A DNA stretch of 64,000 bases from a phage (GCA_012646185.1 GCA_012646185.1_4706.1), one strand, 5' to 3'; shown: positions 2,379 through 49,591, counted from the stretch's first letter. The notes: generated by a model from the letters alone, not told the origin. Numbers and translations are program-made.

Positions 2379-3017
2379 TTAACCTAATTTACCACCGGCA
2401 ATGTTGGTGAAATCTTCGCCATCAGGAACTTGCAGTAGGATACGTGCCATGTCCCAGTTGGTTAATGTAATTGCTTTATCATCGATACTCAGTTCTGGTA
2501 GGTCGAGTTCATGATCATCAAACTCGTAGGAAATACTCCACGTTTCATCTGTTTTAGGATCGGTTATCAACACACCGTCTGTTACACGCATGTAGTCCGG
2601 ATGCAATTCATTACTGAATGTGCTGAACGGATCGGTGTAACATTCAGCATACCCCTCGATCTGCTGACGTTGCGCCTTCGTACGTAATTCAGGGCACGCC
2701 ATAATCAGTTGTCGAGATATGCCGTTTGCAGCACGGAAGTCTTCCACGGTGTTGCATGGCATAACCACATCGTCATGGAAGATGTTCTCCGATTGTCTCA
2801 ACAGCGTCTTACGGAGTTCAGCATAGTTTATCTGATTGAATGCGTCGAACGTTGCTAACGATTCAGCGTAAAAATGCTTTACGTGTTCGCTTGCACTGCC
2901 GAGGCTATTCATCAGCTTGTGGCCGTACTCCATAAAGCTTTTATCGAGACCGGAGGACATTTCTCCGAACCTCAGTGCACGATAACTGTCTCGTCCACCT
3001 GTAAATATTTGCGCCAT
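2379..3017 (-). CDS. hypothetical protein
   Basis: 212-aa ORF; ATG preceded by AGGAGG SD immediately after the stop of the upstream exon. Confidence 0.65.
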   Translation of the reverse strand: MAQIFTGGRDSYRALRFGEMSSGLDKSFMEYGHKLMNSLGSASEHVKHFYAESLATFDAFNQINYAELRKTLLRQSENIFHDDVVMPCNTVEDFRAANGISRQLIMACPELRTKAQRQQIEGYAECYTDPFSTFSNELHPDYMRVTDGVLITDPKTDETWSISYEFDDHELDLPELSIDDKAITLTNWDMARILLQVPDGEDFTNIAGGKLG

Positions 3018-3032
3018 TACAGGCGTCCTCCT

Positions 3033-3254
3033 TTAGCAATGGTTGTTAGTTGCTTCTATTTCATCAAGATACGGTTCTACGTCATCGCCCTCCACGAATT
3101 CGTTGAACCAACAGTCAATGGTAGAAATAACCGGTGACTGGTGTTCACATTTCTTAGATACCTTAAAAGGCACGTTATTATCCATCATACCGAGTTCGGG
3201 TCGAAAACGCCCGAAATGTTTCGCAGTCCAAATGTCTGGGACGATATGGTTGTT
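3033..3254 (-). CDS. exon 3 of beta-prime-like gene (73 codons + stop)
   Basis: Begins AAC AAC CAT ATC GTC CCA (NNHIVP, cf. E. coli QMAVHVP after DFDGD) immediately after an intron-terminal G at 3255; in frame with the micro-exon. Confidence 0.7.
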   Translation of the reverse strand, partial: NNHIVPDIWTAKHFGRFRPELGMMDNNVPFKVSKKCEHQSPVISTIDCWFNEFVEGDDVEPYLDEIEATNNHC

Positions 3255-5233
3255 CATCAAAATCTTCAGTATGAATCGCTACTTCATACCCGCAGCATTA
3301 CCTGCAGCTCCTGGTGTTACCAGGATGTTGAGAGTATATCATGCCCATATTCCAAATGGAACGTAGGACTTCCGCGCTGGATCTCGCTTGAGACCACTTA
3401 CTCGTTGAACGTTCTCCTAAACGGAGCTTCGCTGCTGATTGGACATTGTTACGTACGGTAGGCGTCCCATTAAAGGGATTTTCATTGAAGCCGCGTACAT
3501 CCGTTACCTTGTTTCTACCTTATCGGTTCCTCTTACGAGGCGTAACGGCTTTAGCCTATTCCAGCAATTCACGGAATGCATATTCTCCTTTTCAGGAGAT
3601 AAGGCCATGGCTCTGGCATCACCGTCAAAGTCCACATATCTTCAGTATGAATCGCTACTTCATACCCGCAGCATTACCTGCAGCTCCTGGTGTTACCAGG
3701 ACGGAGAGATCATCTCATCACCCACGAAGGGTGTTCCGCGCTACCCTCAGCGAATTCGAGGGACATGATCGTTGAACCTTCCACCGATAATCGGTGGCTA
3801 GGCTGCTGATTAAACATTGTACGTTGGGGTGGCATCCTGGTTCAGGACTGTCGTTGAAGCCTCCCAACATCCACTCACTTATTTCCGCCTTATCGGCTCC
3901 CATAAGGGCAGAGTGGCTTTAGCCCGTCTCAGCAATTCACGGAATTCAAGCTCTTCCTTTCAGAAGGCAGGGCCTCATCTGAAGCATTGTATCCCTTAAG
4001 GATCATCACGCTTAACCCGATGGTGTTATCCTGCGGATCGCGTTTAACCTTGGTGATTTCAAGACATTGGTTACTGCTTCGGTCAAGTGATGGGTTTCGA
4101 ACAAAGCCGCACACAATCCCATCGAACGGCGTATCAGCAATAAGCTCATCGTGCAGCTCGCTCATCATCGGATGATAATTACGGACATGTTCCGCAACGA
4201 ACGCACGCGCTGCTCTCGGTGAGTAACCACGATGGAATAACTTGGATTGGATATGTTCTTTATTGGTTAAAGTAAATGGTGCGTATGGGAAATGCAGATG
4301 ATAATAACGATGGTTCGCTGTTATCGAACTGATTACGGTACGCGTGGTGAATGGATGTAATGTACCTAATATGTTTTTACGTGTAATACCTTTCTTCTTA
4401 CCGATGAACTCATCGAAAATCGCTGCGTGGTATTGCAGTAGCTTCAATTGCACTTTCGCCATCCAGTTTTCTTTCTTTCTGGCGCTCAAAGGTGTTGTTG
4501 GATGATAGATACTGTTCAACGTACCAATAGCATCGATCGCACCTTCCATTTTGCTATCCGCATAACGACCGGTCGGCGTATTTTCGATAACGAACATCAT
4601 GGCTGCAGGAAAGCTGATATACTGACTGAAGAACTTATCACGATGGATACGGATGAATTCTCGTAGCGTGTCAACTTTCTCCATGTTCTTCGGTCCACGT
4701 AACGTCGGTCCTTTATACAAGATCTCCATGATGCGATCGAAGTTCTGTATAAAGCTATTTACGCCACGCCGTATCCCGAATACATCGAATTGCTGCTCCA
4801 GATAGTTCTTGAGTTCGATGGGTCGTTTTACATTTGGACGGTAACTGGCATCAATGAGCCACGTCATCGTTTCAAAGCTTTTGATATTCAACTCGCTTGC
4901 CAGCACGAGATGGACCAACGGGTTAATGAACGCATCGATTCCTTCAGGAACGCGCGCCCAAACCGTCGAACGAATCTCTTGTTCTGCTGGGTAGGTTACA
5001 ACCGTTTTACAGTTTGGACACACCGTGCCGAGTAGCTCACCACGATTGTAGAAACCACAACCACATTGTGGTGTGATATCCAACGTATCGCTGGAGTAAA
5101 CACGGGTGATAAAACTGTTTAATTTCTTCTTCTCTTCGACGACTTTTGTATCGTAATCATTCAACAAAATCGGCGTGAAAGGAAGTTCTGCGAGCTGTCT
5201 ATCGAAACTCACGATATCGAGCATGATGGCCAT
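3033..5233 (-). CDS. RNA polymerase beta-prime-like subunit, N-terminal fragment type (non-virion RNAP by synteny); gene interrupted by two group I introns
   Basis: Exon 1 carries a Cys4 zinc-ribbon (CGCG...CPNC), a match to the beta-prime GKRVDYSGRSVI region (RKNILGTLHPFTTRTVIS) and an NRAPTLH-like RNPSLD; the spliced product of exons 3983..5233 + 3618..3632 + 3033..3254 (495 aa) reads ...KGYNA-DFDGD-NNHIVPD..., restoring the universal NADFDGD Mg-binding motif; AGGAG SD before the ATG at 5233. Confidence 0.75.
3255..3617 (-). ncRNA. group I intron (no ORF), 3'-proximal member of a tandem pair
   Basis: On the minus strand, in canonical order: P-like GAAUUGCUGGAAU (plus 3561-3573), Q-like AAUCAGCAGC (plus 3431-3440), R-like GUUCAACGAGUAAG (plus 3397-3410), S-like GAUAUACUCU (plus 3331-3340) with P7 pairing GAGUA/UACUC; ends in G; preceding exon ends in U. 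Confidence 0.75.
3618..3632 (-). CDS. 15-nt micro-exon encoding D-F-D-G-D (catalytic aspartate triad)
   Basis: Minus strand GAC TTT GAC GGT GAT lies exactly between the two introns, in frame with exon 1 (ends ...TAC AAT GCT = YNA) and exon 3. Confidence 0.7.
3633..3982 (-). ncRNA. group I intron (no ORF), 5'-proximal member of a tandem pair
   Basis: P-like GAAUUGCUGAGA (plus 3928-3940), Q-like AAUCAGCAGCC (plus 3801-3811), R-like GGUUCAACGAUCAUG (plus 3764-3778), S-like GAUGAUCUCUC (plus 3704-3714) with P7 GAUCAU/AUGAUC; ends in G at 3633; exon 1 ends in U at 3983. Confidence 0.8.
3983..5233 (-). CDS. exon 1 of beta-prime-like gene (417 codons)
   Basis: ORF-track ORF 3929..5233 truncated at the 5' splice site; the 18 track codons after ...GYNA (SDEALPSERKSLNSVNC) are intron-encoded and overlap the intron P element. 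Confidence 0.7.
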
Positions 5234-41550: not shown

Positions 41551-44500
41551 TTATTTGGCGTCGTTAAAATAAATATCAACAGCTCGTTCCGTTGCGTAGA
41601 GGAGACCAAGATTCACAGTCCCAACCACTTCCGGTGAACCGATGATACGGTTAGCGATACTGGTGCCACTGAAGATAGCATCAAGGGTGTGCCCGTCTTC
41701 GGTTTTGTTCACACCATGACCCACGGAAGAGACAACGGATTTCGCTTGAGCTGCGAAGGTACCTTTATCACCCATCCCCGCACCAAGGTCGTAACGCATG
41801 AAAATACGGATAGCGATCTGGTTCTCGCCTAACGGATTACCGTCTATTCTCACGTTACTGTTATTGATACGCCCCGTAGTTGCTTCGTTGAGTTTCAGTT
41901 CCTTAACGCGTTTAGCTCGTGCTTTATCTGCCTCACCGACGAGCGCTGCCATGGTTTCACTCATATCCTCAATCTGAGCGCGGTACAGTACATCGATCTG
42001 TACAACTTCACCATGAACGTCAGCACGTGGGTTATACTGACTCATACGACGTAATGCTTCAACGGCTTCCTGACTCTCATCACTCAGATCGGTCGCAATC
42101 GGTTCTTCCAGTGTTGCAAGGATCGTTCGTGGTTCAACATGATCGCCGATTTTCACGAGACCACGAATGTTGAGATGGGCGTCAACGATGAGCGTACGGC
42201 TCTTAATCGATGGTGTTACGAGACGATCAGCAAGATTGTCGAAGATATACGAACTGTCCTCGTGAGTCTCTGGAATATCCAGAATACCGACAAGAGACAG
42301 AACACCTGCGCGCCAAACAACCTGACCTGGGTTCCACCAATCGCGTTTAAAATAAAGACGATGGAAAACCACCACATCCTGATCCTTAACGCGATCCCCG
42401 ACTTTATAATCGGTAATGAGATCGTGAGGATAATACTTACCTGGTCCTTTCCCGATTATCGTACCGAGCTGGAAAACCTCTTCCCCTAACTCTGGATCGT
42501 CGTATTGTATCGTAAGCGCAGTTTTGGTGACCTTCTTAACAACACCATCGCCTTGGGCAGCTGCTGCAAAGAGCTTACCAACACGATGCGCGATGACAGT
42601 CTCACCGCCTGTGCGCCATGGTTGTACATCGTAACCTTCAGCAGCAATCATGCGGTTGTGTTGGATCCCGACGAAGACCAGACGTTTTCCATCATCACGG
42701 TCTACAGCCGGAACAGCTAACGCTGACGTACTCATTACCGATGAGATGCCGTCTGTCTTTTCATCGAATGGTCGTGTTTCACCATACACCGACACGATAT
42801 TAGCATTAGGTGCAAGGTAAGCAGAGATACCCACATCCCCACTATCTTTCGTACCCTCTGACACAATACCAACATCGGACTTGTCGTATTCACGATCGCG
42901 TGCGCGTCGAAGCGATGTCTTTGAACGACCCCCGATACCGGTCATCGTTGCTTCTTCACCCTGCTTGATATCCAGCATCGGGTTGGTTTCATCGATCACG
43001 ATGGACGCGCTGTCGTCGAGAATTTGGTTCCAGACGCTTACCGGACTGATTGAGATTTTCTGACGATTTCCTTGACTGCTGTTCTCATTCTGACGAATAG
43101 CGCCAACCAGATCCTTATACACCAATTCAGCGAACTTATCGTACGTTTTAAAACGTTGATAGTTCACATCGTTGGTGTTAGGTGCCCAGTCATCCAGAAG
43201 CAGTTCAACAGCACGCAGTAACAACATGGCGAAATCGGTAGGTTCTCCCATGTTCTGTAGCAACGTACGGCTTACCGGATCAACGAAAAGACGCTCCATG
43301 AGTTCAAGTTCGCGTAAATGACGAACCTTAAGTCCGGCACCATCGACAACGTTAAAATAGATATCTCGATTGTCGAAAGCACCGCGAGCGTAACCGATGT
43401 AGTTACGGTACTCGTTAAATCCGCCCAGCAACAACGTCGTCATGCGATCGTCTTTACTGAAGATCAAACTTTCGTCATCAAAGCTCACCGCGAATTCATC
43501 GGGCGCTAGACCCATACGAGAACCGCGAGGTACCGTACGATAGTTCGCTTTAAGATGTTCTAATAACGGGGTAAGTCCACCCAGATAACTTAGAACAACA
43601 CCAACCGGAATACGTACACCCATGAATTCAAGATCGGCGGCTTCGATCGGCATCTTAGCCGCATTGATACCGAAGAAATCGGGGAACGTCCCTACAGGTG
43701 TTGGTGTTTGTCCTGACTGACAGATATAGAGCTGATTGCGTTTATCGATTGCTAAGAATTCACCCAGCGTGTTACGCGCAAACGTCAGGAGCCCTTCGGC
43801 TAACTGTTCGTTGAACCGATCTTCCCCGATGAACTCCGGCAATGTCTTTGTATCAAGACGTATATCCCAATCAGCAAATTGGATTTGGGTATAGTTGCGT
43901 GCAAGCACAGCGAAGTAATACGGGACTTTGACGGCCGGATCAAAGACGTTACCACGTTTTAACGTGGTTAAGGGCGAAGACTTATCGTAATACATCGCTG
44001 TAAGTTGGCGTGTTAGCCAACGACCGGCGTTATTAACGACACGCTCTGAACGTTTAACAAACACCTTACCGTAGGCGGTACTCAACGCAACTTCGGATGA
44101 TGATACCTTTCTAATAGGTTTATCAACACGTTGTTTACGCATCCGGTATTTGATGCCGTTAACAACATAAATGCCGTCCTTACGAACCTTCGGCAACATC
44201 ACCGGGAACGTGGTTGGGACACCGCCTACAGGAGCCAGTTTAATCGTGATGACTTGATAATCCCCCATCACGTCAACAACATCTTCAACTTTATATCCCG
44301 TGACAGGGTAACCTGCCTGTTGTACGGCAACAACAGCGGCTGCGATGTCCTTTTGCATCACGTGTTCAACGTAATGTTTATCCCACACCGCAAGCGTCGA
44401 TTTACATAGGCTCTTATCGACGATAACATCCGCTTCCGGCATAACCTTTGCTGGCGCTAATTTCGCGGCTTTTGGTTTAACTTCAACATACTCAGCAAGT

Positions 44501-45897
44501 GTTAATCCAGAACCGTCGGGTGCTTCGATTTCGTGAATGGCGTCAGCATTACGCATCGCTGCTTTATATTGGACGCCGCTTAACTGACCCGCATCAGCCA
44601 GATCGCTCGCGCGTACCAACACCGCATCCGATAACGACTGAATATATTCACCGTGTGTTTTCGGTAGCGTTGCTGCGTCAAAGACATCAACCTTTTCTTC
44701 TTCGGTATCGTCGGTAACGACTTCGAAGAGATCGTCGGTAATGTCCTGATCTTCATCGGGTTGGAAATCTGGTTGTACTTCTACCCCGGGTACTTCACGG
44801 ACATCTTCGAACGAGCGTTCTACAATGGCGTTCCACGCATCAGCGTCATCGTCTTCATCCGACCCGCCGACCAACTCCGCTTCTAACTCATCGGGATCAA
44901 GAACGGTAGCCAGATCCTCACCGTTAGGAAGCACGACGTCGCGATCATCATACTCCGCATCCGGGCTGTCTGCAAGAATATCTCGCTCTTGACGAAGAAC
45001 CTGTTCCTCTTCTTGTTTCTGTTCTTCTTCATTCGCACTCTGCGACCACAAACGTGTTACCGCCATCATCCAACGACGCTGGAAGGTTTCAAGTGTCGTT
45101 TTATCGAGTTCTTCCCCTTCCTTAACAAGCCCGGTACGCCATTCCTCCAGCAGGCCCAGATTCAGCGTAAAGAAGTACACACCGTCCGTAAATACAACGT
45201 TAAGCTTATCCAGCGTGGCTCTGTCTAACGAAGCCATCGTACTGTTCTCACGATCGGTTCCCAACCAGCGGAAGAAGTCAAAGAACGACAGCTCCTCCGG
45301 CGTAGCGAAATTCATGAGGTTGTTACGGGTCGGTGCCTGTTGCGTGGTACGCATCAACGAAATCTTCGGCAATGTTGACGGTATACGGAACAACAGAAAG
45401 TGTTGACGATCGCTTTGCTGTGCGATTTCGTTGGCTTTCGACCAAATTGTTTTACGTACGTTGAACCATTCATCATACCAACGGGTGAGCGTTGGACGAT
45501 AAATGTACATGTGGTTAAGATGCGCGTAGTTAGCCACGATCTGAGCGTTGATGTTTTTCTCCACCGTACTTAGATCAGTGACCAAACGAAAACGACGATG
45601 CGATGCACGGTAATCCAGTTTCGCACGCGGTAGCTGGAATCGCTGATCCCGTCGAGGTGCGCCTTGCTTGGTTGCAAGGTCATCCGCGAACGATATCCAA
45701 AGCTGGGCACTTTCTTTGCTCAGCATGTATTCGTTTTCTGGAGGACCTATCAATGATGGATCCGTTGCGGTGTAATGATAGACAGCATAACGCGGCAGCT
45801 GCAATAGCTGCACTAAACGTAATCTCGGTGACAATAGCTCTTGGTAGCGTCTGACACCGAACTGTCGGTAGTAATCAAGGTATTTAAGTTTTGCCAT
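41551..45897 (-). CDS. RNA polymerase beta-like subunit, large N-terminal fragment type (virion RNAP by synteny), putative
   Basis: 1448-aa ORF directly downstream of the beta-prime-like gene and next to the giant tail-protein gene, as in phiKZ gp178-gp181; C-terminal DLGAGMGDKG...RIIGSP resembles the beta GDKxAGRHGNKG / NPLGVPSRMNIGQ region; assignment is tentative. Confidence 0.5.
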   Translation of the reverse strand: MAKLKYLDYYRQFGVRRYQELLSPRLRLVQLLQLPRYAVYHYTATDPSLIGPPENEYMLSKESAQLWISFADDLATKQGAPRRDQRFQLPRAKLDYRASHRRFRLVTDLSTVEKNINAQIVANYAHLNHMYIYRPTLTRWYDEWFNVRKTIWSKANEIAQQSDRQHFLLFRIPSTLPKISLMRTTQQAPTRNNLMNFATPEELSFFDFFRWLGTDRENSTMASLDRATLDKLNVVFTDGVYFFTLNLGLLEEWRTGLVKEGEELDKTTLETFQRRWMMAVTRLWSQSANEEEQKQEEEQVLRQERDILADSPDAEYDDRDVVLPNGEDLATVLDPDELEAELVGGSDEDDDADAWNAIVERSFEDVREVPGVEVQPDFQPDEDQDITDDLFEVVTDDTEEEKVDVFDAATLPKTHGEYIQSLSDAVLVRASDLADAGQLSGVQYKAAMRNADAIHEIEAPDGSGLTLAEYVEVKPKAAKLAPAKVMPEADVIVDKSLCKSTLAVWDKHYVEHVMQKDIAAAVVAVQQAGYPVTGYKVEDVVDVMGDYQVITIKLAPVGGVPTTFPVMLPKVRKDGIYVVNGIKYRMRKQRVDKPIRKVSSSEVALSTAYGKVFVKRSERVVNNAGRWLTRQLTAMYYDKSSPLTTLKRGNVFDPAVKVPYYFAVLARNYTQIQFADWDIRLDTKTLPEFIGEDRFNEQLAEGLLTFARNTLGEFLAIDKRNQLYICQSGQTPTPVGTFPDFFGINAAKMPIEAADLEFMGVRIPVGVVLSYLGGLTPLLEHLKANYRTVPRGSRMGLAPDEFAVSFDDESLIFSKDDRMTTLLLGGFNEYRNYIGYARGAFDNRDIYFNVVDGAGLKVRHLRELELMERLFVDPVSRTLLQNMGEPTDFAMLLLRAVELLLDDWAPNTNDVNYQRFKTYDKFAELVYKDLVGAIRQNENSSQGNRQKISISPVSVWNQILDDSASIVIDETNPMLDIKQGEEATMTGIGGRSKTSLRRARDREYDKSDVGIVSEGTKDSGDVGISAYLAPNANIVSVYGETRPFDEKTDGISSVMSTSALAVPAVDRDDGKRLVFVGIQHNRMIAAEGYDVQPWRTGGETVIAHRVGKLFAAAAQGDGVVKKVTKTALTIQYDDPELGEEVFQLGTIIGKGPGKYYPHDLITDYKVGDRVKDQDVVVFHRLYFKRDWWNPGQVVWRAGVLSLVGILDIPETHEDSSYIFDNLADRLVTPSIKSRTLIVDAHLNIRGLVKIGDHVEPRTILATLEEPIATDLSDESQEAVEALRRMSQYNPRADVHGEVVQIDVLYRAQIEDMSETMAALVGEADKARAKRVKELKLNEATTGRINNSNVRIDGNPLGENQIAIRIFMRYDLGAGMGDKGTFAAQAKSVVSSVGHGVNKTEDGHTLDAIFSGTSIANRIIGSPEVVGTVNLGLLYATERAVDIYFNDAK

Positions 45898-45900
45898 GGG

Positions 45901-46080
45901 TTAGGCTCCACGAGGTCCCGTTAAGTTGCGTAACAGGAACGCAACTGTATCGTAACCAATATCAATGTTGAATTTATTTTTACCGCTTACCCAGAAAGCA
46001 CGCTTCTTGTGTGAGTTGGTAATTTCGTCAATAGCTTCCATGGAATAAAGAACGTTAACCGAGACCGTATCACCGTCGAA
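45901..46080 (-). CDS. exon 2 of virion-type beta-prime-like gene (59 codons + stop)
   Basis: Begins TTC GAC GGT GAT ACG GTC (FDGDTVSVNVLYSMEAIDE, cf. E. coli FDGDQMAVHVPLTLEAQLE) right after an intron-terminal G at 46081; stop TAA lies 3 nt before the ATG of the beta-like gene. Confidence 0.7.
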   Translation of the reverse strand, partial: FDGDTVSVNVLYSMEAIDEITNSHKKRAFWVSGKNKFNIDIGYDTVAFLLRNLTGPRGA

Positions 46081-49000
46081 CCTTGTCTTCGCCTCAGGTC
46101 GCTACGCTGAGACCGCCTGCATGGATACGTACATCACAGGCTGCTTGCACTTTCATGCAAGAGGAGACTATATCAAACCGGCAGCGCAACCTGCTACGGT
46201 AACCTACACTTCGAAGACGCTCGTCCTCTACAGGGTGGTAAATCCCTTAGTCGTTGAACCTGCGTTGTTTCACATTCTTGTTTGTAAGAATGTCGTATTA
46301 CTACGCAACAACCAGGCTGCTGATTGCCCATTGTTTCGCACCTTAGCACCGCTTACGCGGCTTTTCTTTCAGCCTAAGCCTCTTACGGAGGTAGTGCATC
46401 TCAACTGTTGTTTCTGCCTTTCGGCACCTCATGGGTCGTTGAGCTTTAGGGGTTCCCAGCATTTCGTAGGTTTTTCAAGCACTCCCTTTCGGGAATACCG
46501 GACTCATTATTAGCTTATTTATTCAAGTATCTGAAATCCCACTTATCTTTACGTCGTTTATCGCACTTGATGTCAGGATGATTAACACGATGCCTAATAG
46601 TTGTTGCCGATAGCTGGCTGAGATTCTCAGCAGATCGTGCGCCAAGAACAACGAGTTTTGTGTCGTCTGGACGCGTAACTTCTACTGCCCGATAATGCTT
46701 ACGTAACACATCACGCCAATATTCACGACGTTCTGGTTCAGCATACTCAAGCATGTAACCGTTAACATCTACTAAACCGTAGCTTTCGTTTAATCGAGAG
46801 GTAGCGGCTGGTTTACTAATACCGATTGCTTTAGCCGCATCGACCACGGTTTTATACGGGGTCTCATTACCGTCTCTATCTACAACCACAATGAAATCTG
46901 GACGTGAATCGAGTAGCTGCTGTCTGCGTTCGACGGCTTGTTGATGAAGCACCATGTTAACGTGTTCGAACCCGTAACCTTCTGGACCGTGCCACCCTGG
47001 ATTGTTATTCGCTCGATAAAGTACCGTCGCAGATTTCACTCCAGTCTGACGTGACGCCTCGTTTGCACTATGAACAACCGTGGTAGAGCCGTCAGGGTGA
47101 TATATCCGTATCTGGTTCATTATACCGGAACCAATGAAGTTACCATCAGCTGATTTAATATCCGGCCATGGTTGAGGATCATCTTTGAATTTAACCACCC
47201 AGCGGTTATTAAACAGTTTGACTTTTCGAACATGTTTGCCCATTGTCGTATCCGTAACACCTGCGACTACTGATGCCTGTGTGATACTCAGGTACTCAGT
47301 AACGGTATCGTTCCATGTATCCCAAAGCAGAACCGGTTTATTGTCGTCGCGTAAACCGTATTCGATGGCGTGTAGAACGTTACGACTTCTGGTCGCCCAT
47401 TCAAGATTATCGAGAGAGTAATTCCATTTGTCGGCATCGAGATGATTAACGTCCAACTTATCGACATTAGCCGGATATTCCCGCCACGCCAACATCAAGC
47501 AGCGATGCAGAACCTTAGTTCTCGTTACATCCCGACAATCATGACGTAGACTAATGAATACGTAATTATCCTTTTTCGGATACGATCTACATTCCTGACC
47601 GTCTTTGCGGCGAATAACTCGTCCTTTCTCATTTATCAGATAACGGGTGTGTCCAGGAATGACACGATAACCAGGGTACTTAGCGATTTCGTAAGCAGGC
47701 TCGAACCGATAGGATAAATTATCAACATCCCAGTTAGATTCGTCACCATCAACAAACATCGCTTTGACGTACTTCTGTGTTTCAATATCAACCAGGATGT
47801 TTTTGTGTGCGATACAAATCAATGCTGGGATATTGAATTCACGACCGGCTAAGATAACCATGTCGCCATTTCTCGGTATCACGACGTGGGTATCACGATA
47901 CCGTAAATTTCCATAGCCGTCTATTTCAATCCAGCTTAGAAACGGAATGGATATAAACTCTTTTTCAGATACTCGCCATTTAAACATCTTAATACCTATT
48001 TAATACTAAACATCATATTAATAGGTTTAAAAGTTAAAAATGACAGAAAATGGCTAAATTGAATCACCGCCTAAACCGGCGAGGTACGGGGCAGGAACAA
48101 TAGTAGTTTCTACGAATGATGCATTAGGTAACCAGTCGGGGTATTCCCATGCGATAAATCGTTCATCCGTTATTGGTTCCCAGTTACTATCCAGTTCGGT
48201 TTTCGGTTTTGCCGCAACGGTTGTACGTGCGTAACAGGTTAACGGGATAACGGATTGCATACCGGATACCGGATAACGTGTTACCATCGCAGCCAGGTTA
48301 TTCCAGTACTTATAACCAGCGATATAAATAAGCTCGGTGTAAGTAATGGGGTGAACATCCGCACCAGGCTTATTCAACATCTCCGGAGGTAATTCACTCA
48401 TACCACGGAATAACCGAAACGAATCATTGTTCACATAGACGAGGCAAAGATATCGTCCATTGACCATGATAGGCTCGTTACGCACGCCAGGATCGCTTAA
48501 GGTGTTCAGTAAACGTTCTATTCCGTCCCAGGTTGTAAAGTCATCGATGGTGTCTGGATCAAGCGTGACACGTTCACGTTCCATCGTTTCGGTATCAATA
48601 AGTTCAACTTCTGTAACGTCACGAACAAATATTTCCTGCAAAATACCGGTACGTAACGCATGTTGCGTTACTGGGAGAGCAGCTTTACTCATCTGGTATA
48701 ACCCTAACTGAACTGCGGTACAGGAAGGCTGGTTAGGCGACCCTAATACCTCCGTTGTGGGGTTAATTGCCGAAATAACGTTACGGGTTGAGTTCCAAAC
48801 GCGACGTGAACCAAACTTCCCTTGGAAGATCCCTTTCTTACCTTGGAACATATCCAACAACAAAGCGTAGATATCGTTAAACGTTCTCTGTAAGCTCCAG
48901 CGTTGGCCGTCGTAAACGGGATCGGAATAATCTTTTAATCCATCAGGGACGGTGTTAGAAATTGCAAGGAAACGACGATACAACTCCGTGATTTCTTGCT

Positions 49001-49529
49001 CGCTTTCATACCCACCTTCTTTTACTTCTATTTCACGTAAACCCGCAGGTAAAACCAGTAGATGACGAGTCATCGCTTTGAACATGTTCTCTTCGACGAC
49101 TTTAATTCGTAGCTCTCGTTGAGCTGAACCCGTTGAAACGAACTTAATATCAGCGACGTGTTGTGCAAAGAACCCGTACCCTGTCTGTCCTGTTAACGCA
49201 TCAGACGCAACGAAGTCGCGTTGTTCAGGATCCCAACGCGCGTACGCCTTCCCCGACATGATATCGCCATAGAGGTGTTTTAGTCGAATGAGACGATCGT
49301 AGATGACAGGATGTAGGATTTCAACCTTGCATTCAATCACCGCAAATCGACGGTCTCGATCTTCACTACCCGCACTACCAAAGATGGTGTATGAATAGAA
49401 ACCGTCATCGTGGAAATTACCGGTGCTTGGATCACGAATGCTCATGCTCGTGATCTTGGGGAGAAAACGTAACTGCTGTTTATCGAGGTGTAAAATACTA
49501 ATATTAAACGGCTCTCTGACTTTAGCCAT
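45901..49529 (-). CDS. RNA polymerase beta-prime-like subunit, N-terminal fragment type (virion RNAP by synteny); gene interrupted by a group I intron
   Basis: Exon 1 shows GLFxxxIFGP-like (DGFYSYTIFGS), QGKFGSRRVWNSTRNVISAINP (cf. [26 protein letters not shown]) and TRYPVSG (cf. NRAPTLH); splicing 48063..49529 to 45901..46080 gives ...YLAGLGGD-FDGD-TVSVNV... (548 aa); AAGAGGAG SD before the ATG at 49529. Confidence 0.75.
46081..48062 (-). ncRNA. group I intron carrying an HNH homing-endonuclease ORF (mobile intron)
   Basis: Minus strand: 5' exon ends GGT GAT (U); ORF 46515..47987 lies in the 5' part; core follows with P-like GAAAUGCUGGGAAC (plus 46451-46465), Q-like AAUCAGCAGCC (46314-46324), R GUUCAACGACUAAG (46246-46260), S GAUAUAGUCUC (46164-46174), P7 GACUA/UAGUC; ends in G. 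Confidence 0.8.
46515..47987 (-). CDS. HNH homing endonuclease (intron-encoded)
   Basis: 490 aa; HNH_3-type motif VNHLDADKWNYSLDNLEWATRSRNVLH; C-terminal helix-turn-helix-like AKAIGISKPAATSRL; lies entirely within the intron. Confidence 0.8.
   Translation of the reverse strand: MFKWRVSEKEFISIPFLSWIEIDGYGNLRYRDTHVVIPRNGDMVILAGREFNIPALICIAHKNILVDIETQKYVKAMFVDGDESNWDVDNLSYRFEPAYEIAKYPGYRVIPGHTRYLINEKGRVIRRKDGQECRSYPKKDNYVFISLRHDCRDVTRTKVLHRCLMLAWREYPANVDKLDVNHLDADKWNYSLDNLEWATRSRNVLHAIEYGLRDDNKPVLLWDTWNDTVTEYLSITQASVVAGVTDTTMGKHVRKVKLFNNRWVVKFKDDPQPWPDIKSADGNFIGSGIMNQIRIYHPDGSTTVVHSANEASRQTGVKSATVLYRANNNPGWHGPEGYGFEHVNMVLHQQAVERRQQLLDSRPDFIVVVDRDGNETPYKTVVDAAKAIGISKPAATSRLNESYGLVDVNGYMLEYAEPERREYWRDVLRKHYRAVEVTRPDDTKLVVLGARSAENLSQLSATTIRHRVNHPDIKCDKRRKDKWDFRYLNK
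48063..49529 (-). CDS. exon 1 of virion-type beta-prime-like gene (489 codons)
   Basis: ORF-track ORF 48054..49571 trimmed at both ends: start at the SD-supported ATG 49529; the last two track codons (S, I) and the stop are intron sequence. Confidence 0.65.
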
Positions 49530-49591
49530 GGAGACACTCCTCTTTACCACCACCGGCTGCGGCGGTATCATCTGAACACACGAGAGACGTA

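What the first reader, a model, noticed from the sequence alone, without database searches (positions are those of the whole stretch)
45901..49529. The second beta-prime-like RNAP gene is split by a ~2-kb group I intron carrying an HNH homing endonuclease, inserted between D and F of the same DFDGD motif
Exon 1 ends ...GGC GGT GAT (LGGD). The intron begins UCA..., contains the 490-aa HNH ORF 46515..47987, then a canonical core (P GAAAUGCUGGGAAC, Q AAUCAGCAGCC, R GUUCAACGACUAAG, S GAUAUAGUCUC) and ends in G at 46081. Exon 2 starts TTC GAC GGT GAT ACG GTC (FDGDTVSVNVLYSMEAIDE), which aligns with E. coli FDGDQMAVHVPLTLEAQLE. Without splicing the first ORF stops two codons after GGD, leaving no catalytic triad; with splicing the protein reads ...GGDFDGDTVSV.... 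The stop of exon 2 lies 3 nt before the ATG of the RNAP beta-like gene.
Basis: partly seen in the sequence, partly recalled or inferred. Interest (0 to 1): 0.85.

Follow-up and report, generated by a model that had tools for sequence, protein, structure and literature searches.

The report
HNH-carrying group I intron in phage RNAP
A giant E. coli phage's packaged RNA polymerase gene is interrupted, inside the codons for its catalytic DFDGD loop, by a self-splicing group I intron that carries its own HNH DNA-cutting enzyme; the call is correct, but the same intron at the same site has been known in phage phiKZ since 2002.

Summary
The window is a Goslar-like E. coli chimallivirus. On the minus strand, the virion-RNAP beta'-N gene (phiKZ gp180 orthologue) is split after GGC GGT GAT (48063) by a 1982-nt group I intron (48062..46081). 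The intron carries a 490-aa I-HmuI-type HNH ORF. Exon 2 (46080..45901) starts FDGDTVSV.

- Rfam RF00028 scores 56.3 bits (gathering 50).
- The P/Q/R/S elements, the U before the 5' splice site and the terminal G are all present.
- The decisive evidence is natural intron-less Goslar-like alleles. They encode a contiguous 548-aa protein that matches the predicted spliced product at all but 1-2 residues.

- The guide sequence (R-GUCC) lies after the ORF, so the HNH gene sits in the P1 loop. Compensatory changes in eight variants and two ORF-less relatives support this.
- The same-site intron occurs in at least six chimallivirus lineages as intron-less, ORF-less and HNH-bearing alleles.
- Goslar-like intron-less alleles differ from intron-plus alleles at three wobble positions at the junction.

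It is not new in kind. phiKZ gp179/gp180 has the same arrangement, and Goslar's GenBank record already marks the ribozyme. Splicing itself remains inferred.

The parts
48063..49529 (-). Exon 1 of the virion-RNAP beta' N-terminal subunit gene (489 codons from Met15). It ends GGC GGT GAT (..LGGD). The mechanical ORF extends upstream to an ATG at 49571 and reads 2 codons into the intron.
   Evidence: phrog_2986 alignment begins at residue 17. Intron-less alleles P0016-P0018 start MAKVREPF.
46081..48062 (-). Group I intron, 1982 nt. The 5' splice site follows U48063, and the 3' terminal G (omega-G) is at 46081.
   Evidence: The same boundaries occur in Goslar and seven further copies.
48052..48065 (-). 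P1 5' strand: exon GAU, then intron UCA, then the distal stem UUAGC.
   Evidence: RNAduplex in 8 variants. Intron +1 covaries with the base 5' of GUCC: U-A in win, L003, L008 and phiKZ; C-G in Goslar, L004 and L005.
47995..48025 (-). Hairpin just upstream of the HNH start codon. Its 3' arm covers the AGG Shine-Dalgarno-like sequence. Inferred role: translational repression of the endonuclease in the folded precursor.
   Evidence: A hairpin at the same place, with different sequence, occurs in 7 variants or lineages.
46515..47987 (-). Intron ORF of 490 aa: an I-HmuI-type HNH endonuclease. The catalytic motif is DVNH182LD..N..N. Three C-terminal strand-plus-helix modules were located, and a fourth was seen only by eye.
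   Evidence: Pfam HNH_3 1.7e-8; NUMOD1 weak at 0.029. phrog_59 1.2e-26. PDB 1U3E I-HmuI E = 0.0033 over residues 114-212. Motif positions.
46500..46515 (-). P1 3' strand, located after the ORF. GCUAA forms the distal stem. UGA-G-UC(C) is the internal guide sequence, with G46503 as the wobble partner of U48063.
   Evidence: The GUCC motif is conserved in phiKZ, OMKO1, L022, L023 and L024.
46144..46530 (-). Ribozyme core matched by Rfam RF00028. Elements: P2 46499..46478; P3 46472..46466 paired with 46207..46201; P4-P5 plus a 126-nt extension 46452..46327; P6 three-way junction 46317..46258; P7.1 46246..46233; P7.2 46228..46213; P8 46200..46177; P9 46161..46144.
   Evidence: The MFE fold reproduces these helices, z = -3.55.
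46081..46143 (-). 3' peripheral helices P9.1 (46141..46115) and P9.2 (46112..46092), then the terminal ..GAAGACAAGG. This stretch lies beyond the Rfam match.
   Evidence: It is 100% identical to Goslar.
45901..46080 (-). Exon 2: 59 codons (FDGDTVSVNVLYSMEAIDE...GPRGA) plus the stop. It carries the remaining FDGD of the catalytic Asp loop.
   Evidence: The 59 aa are identical in all four full-length variants (L005 is truncated after 23 aa), with 4-9 synonymous and 0 non-synonymous codon differences.
41551..45897 (-). Downstream virion-RNAP beta-like subunit gene (1448 aa, phiKZ gp178 orthologue). Its ATG lies 3 nt after the exon 2 stop. It is context only, not part of the intron.
   Evidence: phrog_3148, 1389 bits. 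Synteny with phiKZ gp181-gp180-gp179-gp178.

Best explanation
This is a mobile group I intron of IA-type architecture (P7.1/P7.2, P9.1/P9.2). It interrupts the gene for the N-terminal half of the beta' subunit of the virion-packaged RNA polymerase of a Goslar-like E. coli chimallivirus. The interruption falls between the first D codon and the F codon of the catalytic DFDGD loop.

Proposed mechanism:
- The gene is transcribed through the intron.
- The last three exon bases (GAU) and the first intron bases pair with the guide sequence UGA-GUC(C), which lies about 1.56 kb downstream, just after the HNH ORF. This places the ORF in the P1 loop.
- Exogenous G attacks after U48063. The terminal G46081 then docks and the exons are ligated to GGUGAU-UUCGAC.
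- The result is a 548-aa protein reading ..AGLGGDFDGDTVSV..

The intron ORF encodes an I-HmuI-like HNH endonuclease. By analogy with I-HmuI and PhiPA3 gp210, it nicks intron-less alleles near the DFDGD-coding site. That would drive homing by recombinational repair in co-infections, or damage competitors. A hairpin over its ribosome-binding site probably limits its translation.

Shown here: the sequence, the family membership, the exact exon junction (matched by natural intron-less alleles), the P1 pairing by covariation, and the polymorphic distribution.

Inferred: self-splicing, nicking activity and target, homing or competition, and translational control.
For: - Ribozyme: Rfam RF00028 at 56.3 bits, above the gathering score of 50, E = 8.8e-13. 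The MFE fold of 46506..46081 gives the group I helices, z = -3.55. U sits at -1 and G at the 3' end.
- Junction: the spliced product is colinear with phrog_2986 in one stretch and with contiguous genes in 286 of 310 phage records. A weak local alignment puts GGDFDGD against SGDYDGD of the AR9 beta' subunit, 7S00/7S01.
- Natural intron-less alleles: P0016 (a cluster of 235 sequences), P0017 and P0018 are 548 aa and differ from the prediction at 1-2 residues. They sit in the same synteny.
- Selection: exon 2 shows only synonymous differences among variants, including in the first seven codons. No in-frame start codon lies between the upstream stop and FDGD.
- P1: intron +1 covaries with its partner, and the distal stems are lineage-specific. 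ORF-less relatives have a simple P1 hairpin with the same GUCC.
- Mobility: the same-site intron is found in phiKZ (92 bits), L008, L022, L023 and L024. In phikzviruses, 35 records are intron-less, 10 carry the HNH and 2 are ORF-less.
- HNH.
- Literature: phiKZ gp179 is described as an intron-encoded homing endonuclease (PMC12676376, PMC11512511, PMC10914365). PhiPA3 gp210 nicks its target and gives a competitive advantage (PMC11620839).
Against: - There are no RNA or protein data for this phage, so splicing is inferred.
- ONT-cappable-seq of phiKZ found no spliced reads for the homologous gp179 intron under the conditions tested (PMC10914365).
- P1 has only three exon base pairs here, with a C-U mismatch at -4.
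- The Rfam score is only modestly above threshold.
- The HNH match to I-HmuI is weak (E = 0.0033), and the NUMOD1 match is below the Pfam cut-off.
- Transfer between phages was not observed.
- The complete association of junction wobble bases with intron presence could reflect shared ancestry rather than homing.
Confidence: 0.88

Rival explanations
1. The ribozyme is a decayed, non-splicing relic. The beta'-N gene is then a pseudogene, or yields only a truncated exon 1 protein, and the phage relies on something else for the catalytic loop.
For: No spliced reads were seen for the homologous phiKZ intron (PMC10914365). The Rfam score is close to threshold. P1 is short.
Against: Exon 2 is 100% conserved at the protein level, with only synonymous changes. 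The ribozyme core is nearly invariant while the leader and ORF diverge, and peripheral helices change only by whole-hairpin indels. P1 shows compensatory changes. In one search, 286 of 310 phage records carrying the gene have it uninterrupted.
Confidence: 0.04
2. The gene is truly split. Exon 1 and the 59-codon frame are translated as two polypeptides that assemble without RNA splicing.
For: Jumbo-phage RNAP subunits are commonly split into separate genes (PMC7598289). There is an ATG at codon 14 of exon 2.
Against: No start codon lies between the upstream in-frame stop and FDGD, so the catalytic aspartates could not be translated separately. The FDGD..LYS codons upstream of that ATG show only synonymous variation. 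A bona fide ribozyme lies exactly between the frames. Intron-less alleles fuse the two frames precisely.
Confidence: 0.03
3. The intron splices but is no longer mobile. The HNH protein has been retained for another role, such as a weapon against co-infecting intron-less relatives or a splicing helper, rather than for homing.
For: PhiPA3 gp210 acts in interference competition (PMC11620839). All 7 intron-less Goslar-like alleles carry GGG GAC|TTT, against GGT GAT|TTC in all 8 intron-plus sources. This could mean the surviving intron-less alleles are cleavage-resistant. phiKZ orf179 can be deleted (PMC12676376).
Against: The three allelic states in phikzviruses and same-site occurrence in six lineages fit the ordinary homing cycle. 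Competition and homing are not mutually exclusive. No activity data exist.
Confidence: 0.25

Closest known systems
phiKZ gp180/gp179 intron (virion RNAP beta'-N gene of Pseudomonas phage phiKZ)
   Same: - Identical insertion point: GCG GAT|TTC GAC in phiKZ, GGT GAT|TTC GAC here.
- Same gene and synteny (gp181-like, beta'-N, HNH, ribozyme, exon 2, beta).
- Same order inside the intron: leader hairpin, HNH ORF, then GUCC guide sequence, P2 and the core.
- Rfam RF00028 scores 92 bits in phiKZ.
- The HNH proteins are 32% identical over residues 51-274.
   Different: - The host genes are only about 38% identical.
- The phiKZ intron is 1443 nt with a 357-aa HNH, against 1982 nt and 490 aa here.
- The P5, P6 and P8 peripheries and the P3 sequence differ.
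- phiKZ P1 has 4 exon base pairs, against 3 here.
- phiKZ-clade intron-less alleles are identical to phiKZ exons at the junction, whereas Goslar-clade ones are not.
Escherichia phage vB_EcoM_Goslar gp205/gp206 plus the annotated Intron_gpI (NC_048170)
   Same: It is the orthologous locus. The flanks are about 95% identical, exon 1 protein is 99.8% identical, and the splice sites are the same.
   Different: - The Goslar intron is 2044 nt.
- It has a 13-nt longer, different 5' leader, with intron +1 C instead of U and a compensating G in the guide region.
- It has a 49-nt extra hairpin in P8.
- The HNH ORF is 83.6% identical at the DNA level, with a 61-71% block at 47214..47613.
- GenBank annotates two separate CDSs and a ncRNA, not a joined CDS.
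PhiPA3 gp210 intron in the vRNAP beta gene gp211/209 (Birkholz et al. 2024, PMC11620839)
   Same: It is a group I intron with an HNH nicking endonuclease, inserted next to conserved active-site aspartate codons of a chimallivirus virion-RNAP gene. It is a proven homing-type nickase and competition factor.
   Different: It sits in a different subunit (beta, not beta') and at a different site. PhiPA3's own beta'-N gene (gp212) is intron-less. Activity is shown for gp210 only.
I-HmuI / I-HmuII introns of Bacillus phages SPO1 and SP82, and I-BasI of Bastille
   Same: They share the HNH_3-type catalytic motif followed by helix-turn-helix DNA-binding modules. They are intron-encoded in an essential phage polymerase gene and are nicking enzymes (PMC12908238 for references).
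   Different: The sequence relationship is distant (E = 0.0033). I-HmuI is 174 aa with one C-terminal module, whereas this protein has a roughly 100-aa N-terminal extension and at least three modules. The target is a DNA polymerase gene, not an RNAP gene.
T4 td / nrdB / sunY group IA2 introns
   Same: They share the core consensus (GUUCAACGACUA, GAUAUAGUC), the P7.1/P7.2 helices, and ribosome-site sequestration of the intron ORF (my knowledge of the T4 literature, not tested here).
   Different: The T4 ORFs lie in the P6 or P9 loops and encode GIY-YIG or other endonucleases. Here the ORF is in the P1 loop.

Membership tests
Group I intron (Rfam RF00028) | Conserved catalytic core (P3-P9, P/Q/R/S) scoring above the curated threshold | tested here: met
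   56.3 bits against a gathering score of 50, full-length model match 1-253, E = 8.8e-13. The helices are reproduced by the MFE fold, z = -3.55.
Group I intron (Rfam RF00028) | The 5' splice site follows a U that forms a U-G wobble in P1 with an internal guide sequence | tested here: met
   U48063 pairs with G46503. GAU|UCA pairs with UGA-GUC. The pairing is conserved, with compensatory change at intron +1, in 8 variants, and is present in ORF-less relatives. Only 3 exon base pairs form.
Group I intron (Rfam RF00028) | The intron ends in G (omega-G) | tested here: met
   G46081. The alternative G46082 would break the frame and need a non-U 5' site.
Group I intron (Rfam RF00028) | Removal restores an intact, colinear host gene | tested here: met
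   phrog_2986 matches in one stretch. Natural intron-less alleles are identical at the junction.
Group I intron (Rfam RF00028) | Self-splicing with guanosine cofactor | not testable with these tools
   No RNA data are available. The homologous phiKZ intron gave no spliced ONT reads (PMC10914365).
Subgroup IA (IA2-like) | P7.1 and P7.2 helices between P7 and P3', with T4-type R/S consensus | tested here: inconclusive
   Hairpins at 46246..46233 and 46228..46213 occupy that position. The subgroup was assigned by inspection, not with a subgroup-specific model.
HNH homing endonuclease, I-HmuI type (Pfam HNH_3) | HNH beta-beta-alpha-metal motif with the catalytic His and Asn residues | tested here: met
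   HNH_3 at 34.4 bits against a cut-off of 24.8. DVNH182LD..N..N aligns with I-HmuI VDHKD..N..N.
HNH homing endonuclease, I-HmuI type (Pfam HNH_3) | C-terminal NUMOD / helix-turn-helix DNA-binding modules | tested here: inconclusive
   NUMOD1 scores 15.1 bits, below the cut-off of 22.8. One search located three modules, and a fourth was seen only by eye. There is a weak second alignment to the I-HmuI C-terminus. No structure was predicted.
HNH homing endonuclease, I-HmuI type (Pfam HNH_3) | Site-specific nicking of the intron-less allele near the insertion site | not testable with these tools
   Shown only for PhiPA3 gp210 (PMC11620839) and I-HmuI.
Mobile (homing) intron | Sporadic presence or absence among close relatives at one conserved site | tested here: met
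   Goslar clade: 7 intron-less and 8 intron-plus sources. Phikzviruses: 35 intron-less, 10 with HNH, 2 ORF-less. Three further lineages carry it.
Chimallivirus virion RNAP beta' N-terminal subunit (phiKZ gp180 / phrog_2986) | Full-length homology, the DFDGD catalytic loop and conserved synteny | tested here: met
   phrog_2986 E = 2.2e-179. RAY orthologue annotated 'vRNAP beta' subunit 1'. Matches AR9 beta' 7S00/7S01 at E = 4e-4. Synteny with phiKZ gp181/180/178. Virion packaging was not tested.

The most novel reading that the evidence does not exclude
Goslar-like phage populations may be in an active arms race at this site. All 7 intron-less alleles carry GGG GAC|TTT. All 8 intron-plus sources carry GGT GAT|TTC. 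These are three synonymous wobble differences at -4, -1 and +3, while polymorphisms 10-15 nt away are shared between the two classes.

This would mean the surviving intron-less alleles are natural cleavage-resistant variants of the HNH target, like the laboratory phiKZ escape mutants against PhiPA3 gp210. The C at -1 would also make them poor recipients, because it abolishes the U-G splice-site wobble.

Together with the twin introns that bracket a 36-nt DFDGD micro-exon in the paralogous nvRNAP gene of the same genome, this would make the catalytic loop codons of both phage RNAPs a contested homing hotspot.
Probability: 0.3. Interest if true: 0.55.

Novelty: new member of a known kind. Interest (0 to 1): 0.33.

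Why it matters
For annotation, the vRNAP beta'-N gene of Goslar-like phages should be a joined CDS of 548 aa. At present public records, including Goslar's RefSeq entry, list a truncated 'RNA polymerase beta subunit', a 'hypothetical protein' and a stray ncRNA, and they omit the catalytic FDGD exon.

Biologically, this is one more case of a homing intron parked in the most conserved codons of an essential polymerase. Both intron-plus and intron-less alleles are well represented in public data. E. coli and Goslar-like phages are therefore a tractable system for testing the intron-endonuclease competition model proposed for PhiPA3 and phiKZ. The system could also settle whether and when these introns splice, which ONT data left open for phiKZ. 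It does not reveal a new mechanism.

Tried and rejected
- **First guide-sequence candidate.** I first took GUCAUU (48044..48039), upstream of the ORF, which can pair with GGUGAU. I rejected it because Goslar (GGCAAA), L005 and L008 lack it. The post-ORF R-GUCC is conserved and covaries.
- **Raised divergence near the intron.** Window-versus-Goslar divergence rises in exon 1 next to the intron (82-88% at 48014..48400), which looked like a co-conversion signature. It did not hold against L003, L004 or L005, so I dropped it.
- **Formal pair counts across the two intron types.** The MAFFT alignment of Goslar-type and phiKZ-type cores (A1) misaligns the S/P7' region. I therefore did not run the count of structure pairs or build a covariance model on it. 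The structural claims rest on Rfam, the MFE fold and hand-checked P1 covariation.
- **Literature on Goslar's intron.** Neither the Goslar genome paper nor the chimallivirus core-genome paper mentions it. Two papers, the AR9 genome paper and Ceyssens 2014, were not held.
- **Collection scans for the exon 1 end.** The IMG/VR scan returned only 2 loci. The metagenome scan returned 53, but only 4 were Goslar-like and the rest were chance matches to a degenerate pattern.
- **P10.** Only 2 possible base pairs with exon 2 exist, so I do not claim it.
- **Not attempted.** Structure prediction of the HNH protein, and a promoter or terminator scan inside the intron.


Full report
**What the window is.** The 4.3 kb around the finding is 90.4% identical to Escherichia phage vB_EcoM_Goslar, and the flanking genes are about 95% identical. 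The window therefore comes from a Goslar-like nucleus-forming jumbo phage (chimallivirus). All features of the finding lie on the minus strand.

**Checking the observation.** Every coordinate claim holds.
- The 505-aa ORF 49571..48054 ends ...LAGLGGD-S-I-stop. GAT occupies 48065..48063.
- The intervening sequence 48062..46081 is 1982 nt. It starts UCAAUUU and ends ...ACAAGG.
- It contains a 490-aa ORF (47987..46515).
- After that ORF come unique copies of the four classical core elements: P 46465..46452, Q 46325..46315, R 46259..46246 and S 46174..46164.
- The next frame starts TTC GAC GGT GAT ACG GTC (FDGDTVSV...) at 46080 and runs 59 codons to a stop at 45903..45901.
- That stop is 3 nt before the ATG (45897) of a 1448-aa gene.
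- Rfam's group I intron model matches 46530..46144 over its full length at 56.3 bits (gathering 50). E is 8.8e-13 for the region and 1.3e-11 for the whole window.
- The 426-nt post-ORF part folds on thermodynamics alone into P2, P3, P4-P5 with a large extension, a three-way P6, P7.1, P7.2, P8, P9, P9.1 and P9.2. The z-score is -3.55, and none of 100 shuffles folded as well.
- The Rfam match stops at P9. The true 3' end is 63 nt further on.

**What the host gene is.**
- Joined at the proposed sites, the product matches PHROG 2986 in a single stretch (residues 17-557 against profile 3-538 of 539, E = 2e-179).
- tblastn finds the gene uninterrupted in 286 of 310 phage records. Among them is Erwinia phage RAY, where it is annotated 'vRNAP beta' subunit 1'.
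- The product also hits the solved AR9 beta' subunit (7S00/7S01, E = 4e-4). A weak local alignment there places GGDFDGD on SGDYDGD.
- The downstream 1448-aa gene is the vRNAP beta subunit (phrog_3148).
- The upstream divergent 2252-aa gene is the phiKZ gp181-like protein. Synteny is therefore gp181/gp180/gp178.
- The true start is probably Met15 (49529), where all homologues begin.

**Decisive support for the junction.**
- A protein search returned three 548-aa clusters, P0016 (235 member sequences), P0017 and P0018. P0018 is deposited from a Salmonella Enteritidis assembly.
- These differ from my predicted spliced product at only 1-2 residues and read ...APYLAGLGGDFDGDTVSVNVLYSMEAIDE... without interruption.
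- Their loci (L014-L018, and later L026 and L029) carry the contiguous gene in the same synteny, 3 nt before the beta gene. Nature has thus provided the intron-less allele, and it equals the prediction.
- Within intron-plus variants (window, Goslar, L003, L004, L005) exon 2 shows 4-9 synonymous and no non-synonymous codon differences. Exon 1 shows 45-85 synonymous against 0-2 non-synonymous.
- Synonymous-only changes occur even in the first seven codons after the 3' splice site.
- No start codon lies between the upstream in-frame stop and FDGD. This stretch can therefore be translated only after exon joining.

**Where the guide sequence is.**
- My first candidate, GUCAUU upstream of the ORF, is not conserved in Goslar.
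- Instead, every copy has R-GUCC immediately 5' of P2, after the ORF.
- GUC pairs with the exon's GAU, giving a U-G wobble at the splice site.
- The preceding base pairs with intron position +1, and the two covary. The pair is U-A in the window, L003, L008, phiKZ and L022. It is C-G in Goslar, L004 and L005-7.
- Distal to this, each lineage has its own complementary stem. Examples are UUAGC/GCUAA here, UUAAC/GUUAA in L003, GGAAAGGCU/AGCUUUUCU in Goslar and CCCUUU/AAAGGG in L005.
- RNAduplex recovers the same geometry in all eight variants.
- Two ORF-less relatives (L023 at 383 nt, L024 at 401 nt) have the same P1 as a simple hairpin with a 6-nt loop.
- OMKO1 is a phiKZ-type copy in which the ORF is reduced to nine codons.
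- The HNH gene is therefore an insertion in the P1 loop, and P1 forms across about 1.56 kb.
- Peripheral helices differ between copies only by clean hairpin-sized indels: +33 nt in P5 in L005-7, -33 nt in P6 in L003, and +22 or +49 nt in P8 in L004-7 and Goslar. The core is nearly invariant.

**The intron ORF.**
- It passes Pfam HNH_3 (34.4 bits against 24.8) and matches phrog_59.
- It aligns to I-HmuI (1U3E) over residues 114-212 with the His/Asn motif conserved, DVNH182LD...N...N.
- The C-terminal half holds three strand-plus-helix modules located, plus a fourth seen only by eye. Only one gives a weak NUMOD1 signal, so that part is tentative.
- In seven variants or lineages, the 50 nt before the AUG fold into a hairpin of differing sequence. 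Its 3' arm covers the Shine-Dalgarno region. I infer this restrains translation, as is known for T4 intron ORFs.

**Relatives and prior knowledge.**
- phiKZ itself has the same arrangement. gp180 ends GGG GCG GAT|TAA. gp179 (HNH, 32% identical over residues 51-274) follows. Then comes a ribozyme scoring 92 bits, then FDGDTVSFNAVYSEE..., then gp178.
- This is in the literature. gp179 was predicted to be intron-encoded in 2002. [quoted passage not shown] A figure in PMC5105663 marks introns and a homing nuclease in vRNAP subunits.
- One study found no spliced reads for these phiKZ introns by ONT-cappable-seq (PMC10914365). That is the main caveat on splicing.
- Goslar's own records already annotate 'Intron_gpI' next to two unjoined CDSs. 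I found no paper discussing it.
- The functionally characterised PhiPA3 gp210 intron lies in the beta subunit gene, not in this one.

**Distribution.**
- Among phikzviruses at 97.7% protein identity or more, 35 records are intron-less, 10 carry the HNH intron and 2 carry a 481-nt ORF-less intron.
- Goslar-like sequences split into 7 intron-less and 8 intron-plus sources.
- Same-site introns also occur in a lineage whose exon 1 is 65% identical (L008, HNH 51% identical).
- They also occur in three lineages about 42% identical: L022 with a 329-aa HNH, and L023 and L024 without an ORF.
- This is the pattern expected of a homing intron cycling through invasion, ORF loss and intron loss.

**An unexpected detail.** All intron-plus Goslar-like alleles read GGT GAT|TTC at the junction. 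All intron-less ones read GGG GAC|TTT. The two classes share polymorphisms 10-15 nt upstream. In the phiKZ clade, by contrast, intron-less alleles are identical to phiKZ's exons. The association may reflect any of three things:
- tight co-conversion;
- the need for U at -1 for the splice-site wobble;
- selection of cleavage-resistant intron-less alleles.

With 15 non-independent sequences I cannot decide between these.

**Verdict.** The observation and interpretation are correct. The element is a new member, in a Goslar-like E. coli phage, of the known phiKZ gp179/gp180-type intron family. Splicing, nicking and homing are well-supported inferences, not demonstrations. Interest is modest.

Noticed in passing
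window 3033..5233 (minus strand): The paralogous non-virion RNAP beta'-N gene appears to carry two tandem ORF-less group I introns: A at 3982..3633 (350 nt) and B at 3596..3258 (339 nt). They bracket a 36-nt micro-exon (3632..3597) encoding DFDGDARAMALS. The Rfam hits are sub-threshold (23.1 and 27.4 bits). A and B are 62% identical, and their last ~70 nt are identical. The doubly spliced 503-aa product matches phrog_2987 in one stretch (1-480 against 1-474 of 478). The first cut is at NA|DFDGD, one codon upstream of the vRNAP site.
   Followed up: partly
L013 (Goslar NC_048170 167000-172000) versus window 3000..4000: At the nvRNAP locus Goslar has an annotated Intron_gpI plus a 337-aa HNH endonuclease (gp186). 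The window phage has no ORF there. The two phages therefore differ in intron and endonuclease content at this second site.
   Followed up: no
window 47214..47613: Inside the HNH ORF, identity to Goslar drops to 61-71%, between blocks of 91-93%. This mosaic pattern suggests recombination between endonuclease variants.
   Followed up: no
window 48063/46080 junction; loci L014-L018, L026, L029 versus L001, L003-L005, L044, L047, L060: Three synonymous wobble differences flank the insertion site and are completely associated with intron presence: GGT GAT|TTC in intron-plus alleles, GGG GAC|TTT in intron-less ones. In the phiKZ clade, intron-less and intron-plus junctions are identical.
   Followed up: partly
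L010 (Pseudomonas phage OMKO1) 1768..2248; also fMGyn-Pae01: This is a natural ORF-less derivative of the phiKZ gp179 intron (481 nt). The HNH ORF is reduced to 9 codons, while the leader hairpin, guide sequence and core are kept.
   Followed up: partly
L024 4913..6877: In this distant relative, a 439-aa ORF of unknown nature lies between exon 2 and the beta gene. A 205-aa ORF is also called on the opposite strand, over the ORF-less intron.
   Followed up: no
window 49529..49571: The mechanical ORF starts at an upstream ATG (49571). Homologues, the PHROG profile and the intron-less alleles all start at Met15 (49529, MAKVREPF). Goslar's annotated 502-aa CDS likewise over-extends, reading on into the intron at its 3' end.
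   Followed up: yes
L011 (Vibrio phage vB_pir03) and L012 (Proteus phage 7): Short blastn matches to this ribozyme core fall in introns that split another 'RNA polymerase beta prime' gene in these jumbo phages, probably the nvRNAP beta'-N gene. One of them contains several small ORFs.
   Followed up: no
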